Source: Minisyncoccota bacterium (lineage in GTDB: Bacteria; Patescibacteriota; Minisyncoccia; Phycocordibacterales; XYD1-FULL-46-19). From it: 30,544 nucleotides of DNA. The stretch is taken from NCBI GenBank assembly GCA_041649195.1, contig JBAZNO010000001.1, forward strand, positions 1 to 30,544, read 5' to 3'. Shown here piece after piece: positions 5,827 to 10,490 of this stretch (within the stretch, counting starts at the first letter, position 1; every line of letters starts with the position of its first letter). The notes under the pieces are model-generated. The model made no database searches. It was not told the origin of the DNA and worked only from the letters and a program-made list of their open reading frames with translations. The position numbers were made by a program, and so were the translations under genes.

Positions 5827-8800
5827 TTAGACCACAAAGTTGAGCAATTTATCCTTGATATATATAGCTTTTTTGTACTTTCCTTCAGCTAGCCACTTGG
5901 CCACTAGTGGATTAGTGAGAGCAAGTTTGACAACGCTTTCTTCGCTCTGGCCAGCTGGGAGATTGAGGGTCGCTCGAACCTTACCATTGATTTGAACGAC
6001 AATTTTAACTTCGCTTGAGATTAATTTTTGGGGATCGGCTACGGGCCACGCCGAGAGATGGATTGATTTTGTCTCGCCTAAATTATGCCACAATTCTTCG
6101 GCCACATGGGGCGCTAAGGGGGCAAGTAATTTGAGAAAAATTTTAAAATCTTCGACGGGGATTTGGTCGAGCTTTTCCCAATCATTAGACAAAATCATCA
6201 GGGCCGAAACGGCCGTGTTAAAATTAAAACGATTGATATCGTCGGTCACTTGTTTGATCGTCTTGTGTAAAAGATAATCGCCACCGGTGAGAAGTCGTTT
6301 TTCGTCCTGCGAAATGCGACTTCGCACCGGTGCCACTTTCCCCGCCAAGCGCCAAATCTTCTCCACAAATCTCCGTGACCCCATCAAATTATTGGTACTC
6401 CAAGCCTTAGAGAGTTCGAATGGTCCCATAAACATTTCGTAAAGACGTAAGGTGTCGGCACCATAAAGCCTCACCATATCGTCTGGGTTGATCACATTGC
6501 CCCAGCGCTTGCTCATTTTGCGATTATCCTCGCCCAAAATTAGTCCCTGATTTTTTAATTGGGCAAACGGTTCGGGATAATTAACGACGCCAATATCTTG
6601 CAAAAACTTATGCCAAAAACGGGCGTAGATTAAGTGGCGAGTCGCATGCTCGGTTCCTCCCACATACATATCAACCCCAGTAGCAGAATCTCGCGAGCTC
6701 GATTCGCTACGGGGCAGGCCGGCTCCCAACCAATAATCTAGTTTTTTAATGTCAGCGATAGACTTGCTGTTTTTGGGATCAATAAAGCGTAAAAAGTACC
6801 ATGAAGAGCCGGCCCATTGGGGCATGGTATTAGTTTCGCGCTTGGCGGGCCCTTTGCAGACCGGGCACTTAATATTGACCCAGGTTTTAATGTCAGCCAG
6901 AGGCGATTCCCCTGTGCCGGTGGGGGCATAACTTTTAACTTTAGGTAATTTGACCGGTAAATCTTTTTCGGGTACGGGTACAGCTCGTGGTGAGCCTGCC
7001 GAACCACATTTATCACAATGAATGATCGGGATCGGTTCGCCCCAATAACGTTGACGCGAAAAGACCCAATCGCGCAATTTATATTTTATTATTTGCTGAC
7101 CCCGCGCAAATTTAGTGATCGCTTTTTTGGCTTTTTCATTATCCAGTCCGGTAAATTGCTCGGAATTAATTAGGATTCCTTCTCCAATATAAGGCCCGTC
7201 TACCCCCTTCTTAATTCGCTCTAGCCAAACATCCATTTCGGCATGGACCATGAATTCAGTCGTTAATTCTTCGGGTTTGACCCAGAGAATTTCGTTTTGA
7301 GCCTCCTTTTCTCCTTCGGGAATTTCGCTTTGCTGGTCATCGACGAGGTCAAATTGAACGAGATTGGTAAAAGAAACACGATTAACATTTTTATGATTAG
7401 CAAAATATTCGGCGCGAACTTGTCCGCCAAGAACCTGGCCGTTTTTAAGATTTTGATAACCCGTTTCTTCAAGCACTTCGCGCTTGGCAGCCGTTAACAA
7501 ATCTTCTCCTTCGCTGACCCCACCCATGGGGAAAGTTACCCAATTATATTTATGAGAGTGGAGGCAAAGAATCTTTCCGGTTTTGGGGTTGCGAACAATT
7601 ACTTGAACATTTTTTCGTTCAATTTTTTCTTTACCAGCCACTGGCGGATTTCTCTTATCAATTCGTTCGGGGATAATTACTTCCTTGATCGGTAATTTAA
7701 ATTTCTTGGCAAATTGCCAGTCGCGGTCGTCGTGGGCCGGTACGGCCATAATCGCACCGGTGCCATAATCGGGTAAAACATAATCGGCCACAAAGATTGG
7801 GATCTCCTCTTTATTGGTGGGGTTAATCGCTTTAATCCCCTTCACCTCAACGCCCGTTTTTTCTTTGCCTTCGGCGGTGCGCTCTATTTCACTTCGCTTG
7901 CCAGCCAGAGCGGCGTAATCCTTGATCGCTTTTAAGTTGGTAATATTTTCGGCCAAATCATTAATTAATTTATGCTCTGGCGCTAAGACCAAATAAGTCG
8001 CACCAAATAAAGTGTCGGGGCGAGTAGTAAAAACTTTGACTTGATCGAGACAATGCTCCAAAACGAGGGGTTCGACGGTTCCGCAAAAATGGGATTTTTC
8101 GGCTTTGAGGCGATGGGTTTTGCCACCTAGTGACTGTTGAATAATTTTCGACTCGCCATCGGGGATTAAGCTATCGTTGTCATCTTCGAGAATAACAATC
8201 TCTTTAACATTTTCTTTAATTTTATTAGTATCAAATTTCCAACTCATTAAATATTTAGCCGCTAAACGTTCTTTATCGCGGAATTTTGGCTCAATCAAGC
8301 CGGCCACTAAAATTAATTTATGAATTGGCGTTGATAGTTTTTCTAAAATGCGATAAGACACGACTGAACCGAGCGAGTGACCGACAAGGATGGTGTTAGC
8401 GTCAAATTTTACTTTCGACAAAACATAATCCGCTTGCTCTACCACATCAGGCACATAGGGATGAGGCAAATCGAAGCTAATGACTTCGTGTCCTTGGGCC
8501 TCGAGCTCGCGTTTAAGCCACGGGATAAAGCAACTCTTACTATTACTGCGCCAGCCGTGCAATAAAACATATTTATATTTGGTTTTAAGCGGAAAGGAGA
8601 TCTCGGCGCCCTCACTTTTGCCAATCCAATTGCGTTGGGACTCCTTAATTGATTCAGGCCAATTGAGACCATCAAGATCTTTGAGCAAGCGCTCGGCATA
8701 ATTAGTGATCTTGAGCACCCATTGGCGCATTGGCTTTTTTATCACTTCTGAACCGCATCGTTCGCATTTACCGTCCTCGAGATCTTCGTTGGCGAGACCG

Positions 8801-9375
8801 GTTTGGCAAGACGGGCACCAATTAATTGGCTCCCACGATTCGTAAGCTAGGCCTTTTTTAAAAAGTTGAAGAAAGGCCCATTGCGTCCATTTATAATATT
8901 TGGGGTCGGTGGTATTAATTTCGCGTGACCAATCATAATCAAAACCGATTTTCTCTAATTGCGATTTAAAAACCTTAATATTTTTTTTAACGGCCACTTC
9001 AGGATTAACCTTATTTTTAATGGCATAATTTTCGGCCGGTAAACCAAAGGCGTCCCAACCCATGGGGTGCAAAACATTGAAGCCGTTCATGCGTTTAAAA
9101 CGCGAATAAATATCGGTGGCGGTATAACCCTCAACATGGCCAACATGGAGCCCGTCGCCCGAAGGGTATGGGAACATGTCTAAAATATAGGCCTTGGGCT
9201 TGCCTTTAGAATCGGTAGTTTTATAAGTTTTTTTAGCTCGCCAAACTTTCTGCCACTTAGATTCAATCTTAGCATGATCATACTTGCTTGCTTGCCCATC
9301 CGTAGCTTTGGCGGAGGAGGGCCACTTTTTCTCAATCTTTAAGTGATCGTACTTATCAATTTTTTTAGTCGCCAT
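5827..9375 (-). CDS. leuS: Leucyl-tRNA synthetase with inserted alpha/beta-hydrolase and Nudix domains
   Basis: MFPYPSG.GLHVGH, HPMGWDAFGLPAEN, FTTRPDTLFG, GTGAIMAVPAHD.RD, RDW.FSRQRYWGEPIP, GG.EHA..HL.Y.RF, KMSKRWGN, VVQINGKVR; 1182 aa. Confidence 0.97.
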   Translation of the reverse strand: MATKKIDKYDHLKIEKKWPSSAKATDGQASKYDHAKIESKWQKVWRAKKTYKTTDSKGKPKAYILDMFPYPSGDGLHVGHVEGYTATDIYSRFKRMNGFNVLHPMGWDAFGLPAENYAIKNKVNPEVAVKKNIKVFKSQLEKIGFDYDWSREINTTDPKYYKWTQWAFLQLFKKGLAYESWEPINWCPSCQTGLANEDLEDGKCERCGSEVIKKPMRQWVLKITNYAERLLKDLDGLNWPESIKESQRNWIGKSEGAEISFPLKTKYKYVLLHGWRSNSKSCFIPWLKRELEAQGHEVISFDLPHPYVPDVVEQADYVLSKVKFDANTILVGHSLGSVVSYRILEKLSTPIHKLILVAGLIEPKFRDKERLAAKYLMSWKFDTNKIKENVKEIVILEDDNDSLIPDGESKIIQQSLGGKTHRLKAEKSHFCGTVEPLVLEHCLDQVKVFTTRPDTLFGATYLVLAPEHKLINDLAENITNLKAIKDYAALAGKRSEIERTAEGKEKTGVEVKGIKAINPTNKEEIPIFVADYVLPDYGTGAIMAVPAHDDRDWQFAKKFKLPIKEVIIPERIDKRNPPVAGKEKIERKNVQVIVRNPKTGKILCLHSHKYNWVTFPMGGVSEGEDLLTAAKREVLEETGYQNLKNGQVLGGQVRAEYFANHKNVNRVSFTNLVQFDLVDDQQSEIPEGEKEAQNEILWVKPEELTTEFMVHAEMDVWLERIKKGVDGPYIGEGILINSEQFTGLDNEKAKKAITKFARGQQIIKYKLRDWVFSRQRYWGEPIPIIHCDKCGSAGSPRAVPVPEKDLPVKLPKVKSYAPTGTGESPLADIKTWVNIKCPVCKGPAKRETNTMPQWAGSSWYFLRFIDPKNSKSIADIKKLDYWLGAGLPRSESSSRDSATGVDMYVGGTEHATRHLIYARFWHKFLQDIGVVNYPEPFAQLKNQGLILGEDNRKMSKRWGNVINPDDMVRLYGADTLRLYEMFMGPFELSKAWSTNNLMGSRRFVEKIWRLAGKVAPVRSRISQDEKRLLTGGDYLLHKTIKQVTDDINRFNFNTAVSALMILSNDWEKLDQIPVEDFKIFLKLLAPLAPHVAEELWHNLGETKSIHLSAWPVADPQKLISSEVKIVVQINGKVRATLNLPAGQSEESVVKLALTNPLVAKWLAEGKYKKAIYIKDKLLNFVV
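6282..6332. repeat. 51-bp in-frame palindromic insertion in leuS
   Basis: CACCGGTG-A-GAAGTCG...TTCG-TCCTG-CGAA...CGACTTC-G-CACCGGTG; peptide APVRSRISQDEKRLLTG. Confidence 0.8.
6675..6714. repeat. Palindromic insertion in leuS
   Basis: CCCC-A-GTAGC-A-GAATC...GATTC-GCTAC-GGGG; peptide LPRSESSSRDSATG just before the DMYVGG motif. Confidence 0.7.
6983..7005 (-). repeat. Family A mini-element in leuS
   Basis: Minus strand GGTTCGGCAGGCTCACCACGAGC; peptide GSAGSPRA between C..CG and VPVP. Confidence 0.7.
9290..9322 (-). repeat. Family B mini-element in the leuS N-terminus
   Basis: Minus strand CCCTCCTCCGCCAAAGCTACGGATGGGCAAGC; peptide PSSAKATDGQA; similar to 28441-28471. Confidence 0.75.
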
Positions 9376-9383
9376 TGCGTTTC

Positions 9384-9411
9384 ATCATAACACGAACCAA
9401 AAAGATTTCAA
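9384..9411 (-). promoter_or_regulatory. Near-leaderless leuS promoter
   Basis: TTGAAA, 16 bp, TATGAT with an extended TG, then 8 nt to the ATG; no SD. Confidence 0.55.
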
Positions 9412-9439
9412 TTTGACATCGATGGGTTTGAATTTTATG

Positions 9440-9475
9440 AAAAAGAAAAAGCTGTTTGGGTGCGCAAACAGCTTT
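9440..9475 (-). terminator. Intrinsic terminator downstream of the candidate ncRNA
   Basis: Minus strand AAAGCTGTTTG-CGCACC-CAAACAGCTTT followed by TTCTTTTT. Confidence 0.8.
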
Positions 9476-9482
9476 CCACTGC

Positions 9483-9745
9483 AATACTTGAGCCCAGCCA
9501 GACCCTGGGATCCGGGAATTCGGCCCTGAGTACCTCTTCCGATGCCCATTTGAGGGAACAACTCACACCGTTGCCAAAACCAAGCAGGGCTTGGCTAAAA
9601 GAGACGCCCTCTTCCCGTTGGAGGCCATGACCCACAGCAGAGCTTTGAAGACTTAAAGACTGCCATCATTGGTGGGGAGCATCTTTGCTGGGAGCGCTAA
9701 AACCGAGATTTTCACTCATCCCACTATTGCTTCTTCTCAAGTATC
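9483..9745 (-). ncRNA. Candidate structured ncRNA of unknown family (~263 nt)
   Basis: Perfect 9-bp closing stem ATACTTGAG/CTCAAGTAT, several internal hairpins, ~54% GC (hand count 9481-9720) between AT-rich flanks, terminator immediately 3'. Strand inferred from the terminator. Confidence 0.5.
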
Positions 9746-9815
9746 CTGCTTGATAAAAGCACGAAAAAGTCATTTTGTCTAGGAAAAATGATGTTTTATT
9801 AATTATAACACCTCT

Positions 9816-10490
9816 TTAGTTTTTTTCGATGCCGATGATTTGGCCGTCGTCGATGCGGACGATTTTTTGAGCCATTTTGCCATAAGGTTCTTCGTGGGTC
9901 ACCATGATAATCGTTTGGCCAGCGGCGTGAAGCTCGGTAAAAATTTTCATCACGGCGCGTGAGGATTCGTTATCAAGATTGGCGGTGGGCTCGTCGGCAA
10001 ATAAAATATTTGGCTGGTGGGCAATGGCCCGAGCGATGCTGGCCCGTTGTTGCTCCCCGCCTGAGAGTTGACTCGGCAATTGGTGGAGATGATTAACTAA
10101 ACCCACTTTAGATAAGGATTCGAACGATAATTCGTAAGCCTTACTTTTTTCGACCCCCTGCATCAAGAGGGGTAAAACGACATTTTCGAGAGCGGTTAAT
10201 TCGGGGATTAAAGCGTAATCTTGAAAGACGTAACCTAATTTTTCGAGTCGAAATTTAGTTTTTTCTTCAGCGGTCATCTTGTGGGTGTCGTTACCATCGA
10301 TAATAATTTCGCCGGCGGTTGGTTCGTCAAGCAAGCTCATTTGATACATTAAGGTACTCTTGCCGGCGCCCGAACGACCCATAATGGCAATAAATTCGCC
10401 GGTTTCTACCTTCAAATCAATCCCCTTGAGAACCTTGGTCTCAATGTTGCCGGTGAAGAAGGAGCGTTGTAATTTTTTGGTTTCAATCAT
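9816..10490 (-). CDS. ABC transporter ATP-binding protein, LolD/MacB type
   Basis: GRSGAGKST, LGYVFQ, LSGGEQQR, ILFADEPTANLD, MVTHE. Confidence 0.92.
   Translation of the reverse strand: MIETKKLQRSFFTGNIETKVLKGIDLKVETGEFIAIMGRSGAGKSTLMYQMSLLDEPTAGEIIIDGNDTHKMTAEEKTKFRLEKLGYVFQDYALIPELTALENVVLPLLMQGVEKSKAYELSFESLSKVGLVNHLHQLPSQLSGGEQQRASIARAIAHQPNILFADEPTANLDNESSRAVMKIFTELHAAGQTIIMVTHEEPYGKMAQKIVRIDDGQIIGIEKN

What the first reader, a model, noticed from the sequence alone, without database searches (positions are those of the whole stretch)
9483..9745. Unassigned ~263-nt structured RNA candidate upstream of leuS
Seen: a 9-bp perfect closing stem; internal hairpins (GAG-TGAAAAT-CTC, CTTT-AAGTCTTC-AAAG, CCAAGC-CCT-GCTTGG, CCCAG-GGTCTGG-CTGGG); raised GC; an upstream extended -10 (TG-T-TATAAT near 9800); and a strong terminator 3'. 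I could not match the hallmark motifs of RNase P, tmRNA, SRP or T-box. Inference: an independent ncRNA, possibly a divergent housekeeping RNA (e.g. 6S-like) or a new motif.
Basis: partly seen in the sequence, partly recalled or inferred. Interest (0 to 1): 0.7.

Follow-up and report, generated by a model that had tools for sequence, protein, structure and literature searches.

The report
Rare structured RNA gene beside leuS
The stretch upstream of leuS is most likely a real, independently transcribed, folded non-coding RNA that matches no catalogued RNA family. Only one relative was found, in a distant Saccharibacteria genome, so it is a rare accessory RNA of unknown function, not a housekeeping RNA.

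Summary
On this sequence alone the case is weak. The fold is no more stable than shuffled sequence (z +0.3). There is no Rfam match. Nothing similar was found in 8 genomes of the same genus, although this genome's tmRNA is found in all 8 by the same search.

A phylum-wide search found one true homologue, in a complete Candidatus Saccharibacteria genome (OZ246404.1). It also has its own promoter and is followed directly by a terminator, but it sits among unrelated genes.

The two copies are about 56% identical. They share seven conserved blocks and differ by indels of 31, 4, 2, 7 and 30 nt, with no shared reading frame. Their helices are kept through compensatory changes:
- The closing stem is 9 bp here and 13 bp there. 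Six of the 9 aligned pairs changed on both sides and all still pair.
- An 8-bp internal helix has 4 double changes.
- When a fold predicted from one sequence is mapped onto the other, 12 of 17 doubly changed pairs stay canonical, against 18 of 79 in slid controls (p = 3e-4).

So it is a structured ncRNA of a new, very patchy family. RNase P, SRP, 6S, tmRNA, T-box leader, small protein and MITE are rejected. Function is unknown.

Seen in passing: the sampled order appears to lack the SRP pathway.

The parts
9802..9829 (-). Upstream promoter: TCGAAA-16-TGtTATAAT (extended -10). The predicted start is near 9795, which would give a leader of about 50 nt before P1.
   Evidence: 10 of 12 matches plus TG. 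TGnTAnAAT is enriched in non-coding DNA of this genome, and many copies lie 6-9 nt before a start codon.
9753..9781 (-). Possible proximal promoter: TAGACA-17-TGcTTTTAT. It would put the start 1-3 nt before P1, as in the homologue. The -10 lacks A at position 2, so it is weak.
   Evidence: Read from the sequence. Inferred by analogy with the homologue's TTGACA-16-TATATT, which ends 7 nt before its P1.
9736..9744 (-). P1 5' strand, AUACUUGAG (closing stem).
   Evidence: It pairs with 9484-9492. In the homologue 6 of the 9 aligned pairs changed on both sides and all remain canonical.
9704..9728 (-). Conserved block 1: AAUAnnGGGAUGrGUGAAAwUCyCG. It holds the P2 5' strand (GGGA, 9722-9719) and hairpin P2a (UGAG, 7-nt loop UGAAAAU, CUCG; 9718-9704). 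The loop is T-loop-like.
   Evidence: A-U to G-C compensatory change in P2a. Weak local likeness to FMN riboswitch J1/2 plus P2.
9683..9693 (-). P2 3' strand (UCCC, 9693-9690) followed by the invariant joiner AGCAAAG (9689-9683).
9627..9682 (-). P3 domain. Outer helix AUG/CAU (9682-9680 with 9629-9627) and CCCAC/GUGGG (9676-9672 with 9635-9631). They enclose the conserved AUGGCAGUC ... AAAG ...
   Evidence: 8 pairs, 4 changed on both sides, 1 changed on one side, none broken. CCCAC/GUGGG is also in the single-sequence MFE and centroid folds.
9593..9626 (-). P4 and P4a. GGC/GCC closes a helix AA-C-GGG / CUC-UU that contains the conserved CCArCGGG.
   Evidence: one compensatory change in each. 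Weaker support than P1 and P3.
9527..9594 (-). Variable region with lineage-specific hairpins. Here it is CCAAGC-CCU-GCUUGG (9594-9580). The homologue has a different hairpin and a 30-nt insertion. A short conserved UCGG..GAGGU lies at about 9541-9531.
   Evidence: alignment A4; indel lengths.
9493..9526 (-). Conserved 3' block: GGCCGAAUUCCCsGAUCCCAGGGUCUGGCUrGGC. The blastn match over it is 89% identical over 44 nt. It may form GGG-CCGAAUU-CCC and CC.GAUC-CCAG-GGUC.GG hairpins.
   Evidence: The pairs are invariant, so the structure here is untested.
9484..9492 (-). P1 3' strand, CUCAAGUAU.
9440..9477 (-). Intrinsic terminator: a 13-bp stem, 6-nt loop and U run, starting 6 nt after P1.
   Evidence: The homologue has a hairpin plus U7 directly after its P1 (sequence).
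9384..9411 (-). leuS's own promoter, TTGAAA-16-TGtTATGAT, 8 nt before the ATG (leaderless). It is not part of the RNA and marks the end of the variable slot.
   Evidence: This is the only part of the intergenic region conserved in genomes of the same genus.

Best explanation
Window 9744..9484, minus strand, is the core of a stand-alone structured non-coding RNA gene.

The core is about 261 nt. Transcription starts at its own extended -10 promoter and ends at the intrinsic terminator immediately after the core.

The RNA is closed by a long-range stem, P1, that joins its two ends. It has at least two further conserved helices: P2/P2a, which carries a T-loop-like UGAAAWU hairpin, and P3. Invariant single-stranded joiners (AGCAAAG, AUGGCAGUC, GCUCUGCU) and a highly conserved 34-nt 3' block complete it.

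It belongs to a previously uncatalogued family with a very patchy spread in Patescibacteria. Two members are known: this one and one in a Ca. Saccharibacteria genome.

Shown:
- homology over the whole length;
- the same promoter, core and terminator layout in both copies;
- compensatory base-pair changes;
- no coding signal;
- not found in close relatives.

Inferred:
- The RNA acts in trans as a folded scaffold. Its invariant joiners and T-loop-type hairpins would bind a protein or a small ligand, rather than regulating leuS.
- It is an accessory gene, either gained by transfer or kept in very few lineages.
For: Transcription signals
- Promoter and terminator flank the core.
- The -10 type is the one this genome uses.

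Homologue
- blastn found G481:C1:3377-3420 at E 3.5e-9.
- Homology extends over the whole core, with seven conserved blocks.
- A TTGACA-16-TATATT promoter ends 7 nt before its P1.
- A hairpin plus U7 follows its P1 directly.
- Its neighbours are mscL, khpA and clpP, unrelated to the neighbours here.

Covariation
- P1: 6 of 9 aligned pairs changed on both sides and none is broken. The stem is 13 bp in the homologue.
- P3: 4 double changes in 8 pairs.
- End-to-end helix: 12 of 5000 shuffles reach the observed length here, 0 of 5000 in the homologue.
- Fold predicted from one sequence only, mapped through a sequence-only alignment: doubly changed pairs are canonical in 12 of 17, against 18 of 79 in slid controls (Fisher 2.8e-4). 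In the reverse direction it is 8 of 10 against 12 of 37 (0.009).
- G-U pairs lie on the promoter's strand.

Non-coding
- The best-frame codon score is below the 5th percentile of coding windows.
- Indels are 31, 4, 2 and 7 nt, and the open frames of the two copies are not homologous.
- A protein search found only a TGA=W gene call on this same DNA.

Real DNA
- Identical sequence in assemblies from two studies.
Against: - Only two members are known, so the covariation rests on a single pairwise comparison.
- A column-shuffle test of the RNAalifold consensus is only marginal: z = -1.6, with compensatory pairs 14 against 9.2 +/- 2.9.
- Single-sequence MFE z-scores are +0.3 here and -0.9 in the homologue.
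- Many singly changed pairs of the predicted folds are broken. Only P1, P2a, P3 and perhaps P4 are supported.
- Transcription is not shown by any data.
- No functional partner or target is known, so the trans-acting scaffold mechanism is inference.
Confidence: 0.68

Rival explanations
1. It is a cis-acting leader or riboswitch for leuS. The folded core would sense a signal and the terminator would act as the expression platform, controlling read-through into leuS.
For: - The order promoter, structured RNA, terminator, then leuS on the same strand is the usual layout of a leader.
- The T-loop hairpin and the junction resemble FMN and cobalamin aptamer modules.
Against: - leuS has its own promoter 8 nt before the ATG. 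That promoter is conserved in the genus, while the RNA was not found there.
- No T-box or any other riboswitch model matches.
- P1 and the terminator do not overlap, so no antiterminator alternative is visible (sequence).
- In the homologue the next gene is on the opposite strand and is not an aminoacyl-tRNA synthetase.
Confidence: 0.06
2. It is a DNA-level element and not an RNA. It would be a relic of a small mobile element (MITE-like, with terminal inverted repeats) or of transferred cargo DNA dropped into a variable slot, with no function of its own.
For: - The slot between the ABC transporter genes and the leuS promoter holds unrelated cargo of raised GC in each relative.
- Inverted repeats lie at both ends.
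- The distribution is extremely patchy.
Against: - There is one copy per genome.
- The end repeats differ in sequence between the two copies yet stay complementary. That is expected of an RNA helix, not of transposase-binding ends.
- Internal helices covary, and the G-U pairs are strand-specific.
- Both copies keep a promoter and a terminator.
- No transposase or integrase gene lies nearby.
Confidence: 0.1
3. It is a divergent housekeeping RNA: 6S, SRP RNA or RNase P RNA. All three go undetected in this assembly.
For: - The own genome gives no Rfam hit for RNase P A or B, small or large SRP RNA, or 6S.
- The size and the closing stem resemble such RNAs.
Against: - It was not found in 8 genomes of the same genus or in 149 relatives. 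tmRNA is found in 8 of 8 genomes of the genus.
- RNase P RNA is canonical in 8 of 8 genomes of the genus and in the homologue's genome.
- The Ffh M domain and the SRP54 GTPase domain were not found in 26 relatives.
- The fold is multi-branched, not a rod with a central bubble, and it has no stability excess.
Confidence: 0.02
4. It is a small protein gene or a recent pseudogene. The frame 9773..9435 has 112 codons with one TGA, and other pipelines have called it as a protein under TGA=W.
For: - That frame has a single stop.
- A 112-aa gene call for it exists in public collections.
Against: - The gene call is on this same DNA and needs TGA=W, yet the genome's long genes are intact under table 11.
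- The codon score of that frame is about 0.0-0.02, against a coding mean of 0.198 and a 5th percentile of 0.062.
- No homologue was found among 1.84 billion representative proteins.
- The homologue's open frame is a different frame, and the indels are not multiples of three.
- The frame runs through the terminator hairpin.
- There is no Shine-Dalgarno sequence and no leaderless start.
Confidence: 0.03

Closest known systems
FMN riboswitch aptamer (RFN element, Rfam RF00050)
   Same: - Local match in the homologue: CAGGGAUGGGUGAAAUUCCCG against the FMN consensus J1/2 plus P2, caGGGCaGGGUGaAAUUCCCu.
- A later GUCAGAAUGGCAG matches GUCcGGAUGggAG.
- Both are closed by a P1 stem.
- Both use a 3-bp hairpin with a 7-nt UGAAAUU T-loop-type loop.
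   Different: - The score is 13.5 bits against a gathering score of 66.2, at E 1.3. The window copy gives no hit at all.
- The spacing differs and the FMN six-helix junction is missing.
- There are about 170 further nucleotides with their own conserved 3' block.
- It is a stand-alone gene, not the leader of a flavin gene.
Large orphan structured bacterial ncRNAs known only from comparative genomics (for example the raiA motif, OLE, ROOL, GOLLD; named from my own knowledge of the field)
   Same: - Size of 250 nt or more.
- Own promoter and terminator.
- Conserved joiners combined with covarying helices.
- Unknown biochemical function.
   Different: - It matches none of those Rfam models.
- Those classes have hundreds to thousands of members with consistent phylogenetic spread. 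This one has two members in about 1,400 Patescibacteria genomes searched.
6S RNA (RF00013)
   Same: - A stand-alone RNA of a few hundred nucleotides whose 5' and 3' ends are joined by a closing stem.
- Poorly conserved in sequence.
   Different: - No model match.
- The fold is multi-branched and has no central bubble.
- Not found in genomes of the same genus.
T-box leader of aminoacyl-tRNA synthetase genes (RF00230)
   Same: It lies upstream of leuS, ends in a terminator, and contains a T-loop-like hairpin.
   Different: - No model match at E<=10.
- No specifier or antiterminator arrangement is visible.
- leuS has its own conserved promoter.
- The homologue is not next to any synthetase gene.

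Membership tests
Bacterial RNase P RNA (RF00010 / RF00011) | Matches the covariance model, which captures the conserved CR-I to CR-V and P4. | tested here: not met
   No hit in the window at the gathering score or at E<=10. No hit anywhere in the own genome.
Bacterial RNase P RNA (RF00010 / RF00011) | Is the genome's single RNase P RNA and is conserved in relatives. | tested here: not met
   Eight of 8 genomes of the same genus carry a canonical type A RNA elsewhere. The homologue's genome has one at 201 bits elsewhere.
SRP RNA (RF00169 / RF01854) | Matches the model (domain IV, helix 8 motif). | tested here: not met
SRP RNA (RF00169 / RF01854) | The partner protein Ffh, with its M domain, is present. 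| tested here: not met
   PF02978 found in 0 of 26 relatives. PF00448 gave only Walker-A fragments. TIGR00959 and TIGR00064 were not found in the own genome.
6S RNA (RF00013) | Model match, and a rod-like fold with a central bubble. | tested here: not met
   No hit. The predicted and consensus folds are multi-branched.
tmRNA (RF00023) | tRNA-like ends plus a tag reading frame. | tested here: not met
   ARAGORN and Rfam find nothing here. The genome's tmRNA is on contig 9 at 143.8 bits.
T-box leader (RF00230) | Model match, and conservation upstream of the regulated synthetase gene. | tested here: not met
   No hit at E<=10. Not found upstream of leuS in 29 relatives or in 80 metagenome loci.
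FMN riboswitch (RF00050) | Reaches the family's gathering score of 66.2 bits. | tested here: not met
   13.5 bits in the homologue. Not listed for the window copy.
MITE or other small mobile element | Several copies per genome, with terminal inverted repeats conserved in sequence. | tested here: not met
   A single copy in the own genome. The end repeats differ at 6 of 9 positions between the two members but stay complementary.
Protein-coding gene | A conserved reading frame, coding-like codon usage and protein homologues. | tested here: not met
Structured ncRNA with conserved secondary structure (general criterion) | Helices are maintained by compensatory changes across homologues, more often than in controls. 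| tested here: met
   P1 and P3. Canonical double changes 12 of 17 against 18 of 79 in slid controls, p = 2.8e-4. This rests on one pair of sequences only, and the column-shuffle z is just -1.6.
Structured ncRNA with conserved secondary structure (general criterion) | The RNA is transcribed with defined ends. | not testable with these tools
   No RNA run was listed. Only promoter and terminator consensus matches are available.

The most novel reading that the evidence does not exclude
This is the founding pair of a new class of large structured RNA in Patescibacteria. Its core reuses the T-loop hairpin and junction module of the flavin and cobalamin aptamers. It would work as a free-standing, trans-acting RNA that binds a ligand or a protein, carried as a horizontally mobile accessory gene made of nothing but promoter, RNA and terminator.
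Probability: 0.12. Interest if true: 0.75.

Novelty: new variant of a known kind. Interest (0 to 1): 0.45.

Why it matters
Patescibacteria (CPR bacteria) have tiny genomes and almost no described non-coding RNAs beyond the universal ones.

A folded RNA of 260-340 nt has kept its architecture across two classes of the phylum, yet is missing from close relatives of both carriers. That suggests an accessory RNA function that can be gained or lost as a single small gene.

If more members are found, the invariant joiners and the riboswitch-like T-loop module give direct handles for ligand or protein binding tests.

At present it is a two-member family of unknown function. It is a lead, not a result.

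Tried and rejected
Ideas tested and dropped
- Rfam, at the gathering score and at E<=10, on the window, the homologue and 20 relatives' leuS loci: nothing relevant.
- Single-sequence stability: z +0.14, +0.32, +0.33 and -0.88, so uninformative.
- FtsH remnant: a 21-nt blastn hit in G028 lies in the GMSEKLG coding motif. The flanks show no similarity, so it is chance.
- G457 hit: lies at the start of a coding gene, so it is chance.
- Short hits across 400 genomes of the order occur at the rate expected by chance.
- tracrRNA idea: no CRISPR array in the assembly.
- Pseudogene or small ORF idea: rejected.
- Cloning-vector look-alike: GAATTCCCGGATCC lies inside the conserved 3' block, and the sequence is present with its genomic flanks in independent assemblies, so it is a coincidence.

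Searches for more members that found nothing
- 60, 400 and 400 genomes by blastn.
- 120 relatives of G481.
- 149 relatives by covariance model R1.
- An exact 20-mer in 185,579 species genomes matched only OZ246404.1.
- IMG/VR patterns.
- Phages and plasmids. The one Erwinia phage hit lies in a protein-coding gene at E 2e-3.
- 80 metagenome leuS loci.
- Translated spurious ORFs.
- Paper full text.

Expression and variation
- No RNA holder was listed.
- Laid contigs from a second study are identical, so they add no variation.

Not attempted
- A full-length covariance model, because a model of this length exceeds the calibration limit.
- The count of structure pairs, because the long structure string would have had to be typed in. 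The equivalent counts were made by script.

Full report
**What is there**

The finding lies in the 440-nt gap between an ABC-transporter ATPase gene (9816..10490, minus strand) and leuS (5827..9375, minus strand; Pfam).

On the minus strand the gap holds, in order:
- an extended -10 promoter, TCGAAA-16-TGtTATAAT, at 9829..9802;
- the candidate;
- an intrinsic terminator at 9477..9446, with a 13-bp stem and a U run;
- a second promoter at 9411..9384, which ends 8 nt before the leuS ATG.

GC is 52% against a genome mean of 43.7%, the 95th percentile.

The genome is a 590-kb, 86-contig, 90%-complete assembly of Patescibacteria type.

**First pass: the sequence alone argues against a structured RNA**

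- No Rfam family matches, at the gathering score or at E<=10.
- The fold is no more stable than dinucleotide shuffles, with z +0.14 to +0.33 on either strand.
- blastn finds nothing in 60 relatives, including 8 genomes of the same genus, nor upstream of leuS in 29 relatives or in 80 metagenome loci.
- As a positive control, this genome's own 389-nt tmRNA is found by the same search in 8 of 8 genomes of the genus, at 72-86% identity, and in 46 of 61 genomes overall.
- In relatives the same slot holds unrelated small ORFs of raised GC. Only the leuS promoter is conserved.
- The region has no coding signal. Its best-frame codon score is 0.055, against a 5th percentile of 0.062 for coding windows.

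**Housekeeping RNAs**

The assembly gives no Rfam hit for RNase P, SRP or 6S RNA. It does contain tmRNA.

- RNase P is excluded. Eight of 8 genomes of the same genus have a canonical type A RNA, so the own copy is probably on an unassembled piece.
- SRP RNA is excluded. Neither SRP RNA model, nor the Ffh M domain, nor a real SRP54-type GTPase domain, is found in any of 26 genomes of the order. Many of those genomes are 99-100% complete. This is a notable observation in its own right.

**Turning point**

A blastn search of 400 genomes drawn across the phylum gave one significant hit, G481:C1:3377-3420 (44 nt, 89% identity, E 3.5e-9). A pattern scan names the record OZ246404.1, a complete Candidatus Saccharibacteria chromosome.

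Homology extends over the whole core. The two copies are about 56% identical and share seven conserved blocks:
- AAUAnnGGGAUGrGUGAAAwUCyCG
- CUCCyAGCAAAGrUG
- AUGGCAGUC
- AAGCUCUGCU
- CCArCGGG
- UCGG..GAGGU
- GGCCGAAUUCCCsGAUCCCAGGGUCUGGCUrGGC

The Saccharibacteria copy is also a stand-alone unit.
- A TTGACA-16-TATATT promoter ends 7 nt before its first paired base.
- A long hairpin plus U7 follows its last paired base.
- Its neighbours are mscL, khpA on the opposite strand, and clpP.
- It matches no Rfam family either.
- That genome has an ordinary RNase P RNA elsewhere.

**Structure**

The closing stem is conserved in position but not in sequence. It reads AUACUUGAG/CUCAAGUAU here and AAUCUUCUUAAGG/CCUUAAGAAGAUU there. 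In the register given by a sequence-only alignment (A4), 6 of the 9 pairs changed on both sides and all remain canonical. Helices of this length between the two ends arise in 12 of 5000 shuffles here and 0 of 5000 in the homologue.

Other helices:
- P3 (AUG..CCCAC / GUGGG..CAU against GUG..CUGGU / AUCAG..CAC) has 4 double changes and 1 single change in 8 pairs, with none broken.
- P2a (GAG/CUC against GGG/CCC) and P4 have one compensatory change each.

As a test free of circularity, I predicted the fold from one sequence alone and carried it to the other through alignment A4.
- From this copy to the homologue, pairs changed on both sides are canonical in 12 of 17 cases, against 18 of 79 when the 3' partner is slid by 1-3 columns (Fisher p = 2.8e-4).
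- In the other direction it is 8 of 10 against 12 of 37 (p = 0.009).

Further points in favour:
- G-U pairs lie on the strand of the promoter and terminator.
- Indels of 31, 4, 2, 7 and 30 nt, several of them whole hairpins, and non-homologous open frames rule out a shared protein.

Caveats:
- A column-shuffle test of the RNAalifold consensus is only marginal, at z = -1.6.
- Many singly changed pairs of the single-sequence folds break. I therefore regard only P1, P2a, P3 and perhaps P4 as supported.
The alternative pairing there is invariant and so untested.

**Distribution**

No further member was found in:
- 120 relatives of the Saccharibacteria genome;
- 149 relatives of this genome, using a covariance model of the 5' domain, where self scores 132.9 bits and the next best scores 18 bits;
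- the exact 20-mer scan of one genome for each of 185,579 species;
- IMG/VR, phage and plasmid collections;
- translated searches for spurious ORF calls.

The only 'protein' hit is a TGA=W gene call on this very DNA.

The 56% identity between the two copies is similar to that of RNase P RNA between the same two lineages (50-56%). I therefore cannot decide between an old RNA lost almost everywhere and an old transfer.

**What it resembles**

The best local likeness is to the FMN riboswitch, in its J1/2 junction, its P2 T-loop hairpin and a piece of J6/1. The score is only 13.5 bits against a gathering score of 66.2, and only the homologue shows it. From my own knowledge, cobalamin aptamers carry a similar GGGUGAnAAUCCC hairpin. 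I take this as a shared structural module, not as membership.

It is not a leader of leuS. leuS has its own conserved, apparently leaderless promoter. P1 and the terminator do not compete for bases. The homologue has no gene downstream on the same strand.

**Verdict**

This is most likely a genuine, independently transcribed structured ncRNA of a new and very rare family (confidence about 0.7). The function is unknown. My best guess is a trans-acting scaffold that binds a protein or a ligand.

Transcription itself is unproven, because no RNA run was listed. The DNA is real: identical copies occur in assemblies from a landfill study and a groundwater study.

Noticed in passing
whole genome G000 and 25 relatives of the same order: The signal recognition particle pathway was not found in this clade.
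- SRP RNA models RF00169 and RF01854: 0 of 26 genomes.
- Ffh M domain PF02978: 0 of 26 genomes.
- SRP54-type GTPase PF00448: only Walker-A-sized fragments.
- TIGR00959 (ffh) and TIGR00064 (ftsY): not found in the own genome.

The same searches found a match in 7 to 14 of the 14 control genomes, depending on the family (14 of 14 for the protein families, 7-13 for the two SRP RNA models). Many of the relatives are 99-100% complete. Two full-text paper searches did not turn up a paper reporting this.
   Followed up: partly
whole genome G000; for example window 9384-9411 before leuS: Leaderless mRNAs look common. The extended -10 motif TGnTAnAAT is enriched in non-coding DNA (74 of 181 copies in 22% of the genome). 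About 30 of those 74 copies end 6-9 nt before the start codon of an ORF of 110 aa or more, leuS among them. The leuS promoter is conserved in genomes of the same genus.
   Followed up: partly
whole genome G000: No RNase P RNA (type A or B) is detected in this assembly, although 8 of 8 genomes of the same genus have one at 98-140 bits. This is probably an assembly gap, given 86 contigs and 90% completeness. The flanks of the relatives' copies gave no useful synteny.
   Followed up: partly
window 5827-9375 (-): LeuRS is 1182 aa long. It carries an alpha/beta-hydrolase (serine hydrolase) domain at residues 269-424 and a NUDIX domain at residues 587-715, inserted around the editing domain. Its N-terminus is about 25-30 residues longer than in most relatives. 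Only the closest relative, G005, shares the extension.
   Followed up: partly
window 9404-9432 (+) and 9437-9529 (+): On the opposite strand there is a promoter-like TTGACA-17-TATGAA followed by a 30-codon ORF, MKKKKLFGC..., that runs antisense through the terminator and the conserved 3' block. It has no Shine-Dalgarno sequence. I judged it chance and did not test it.
   Followed up: no
L043 (G005 RNase P RNA) positions 184-216 of the RNA; own genome C3:5418-5443 and C27:2764-2794: A 27-33-nt piece inside the RNase P RNA of a genome of the same genus matches two places in this genome at 91-96% identity. It looks like a small repeated hairpin element inserted in that RNA.
   Followed up: no
own genome C17:7199, C20:6541, C20:2548: Three intergenic copies of GATTACCCTTGGAA..., each followed by TGTTATAAT. 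This is a repeated promoter-bearing element.
   Followed up: no
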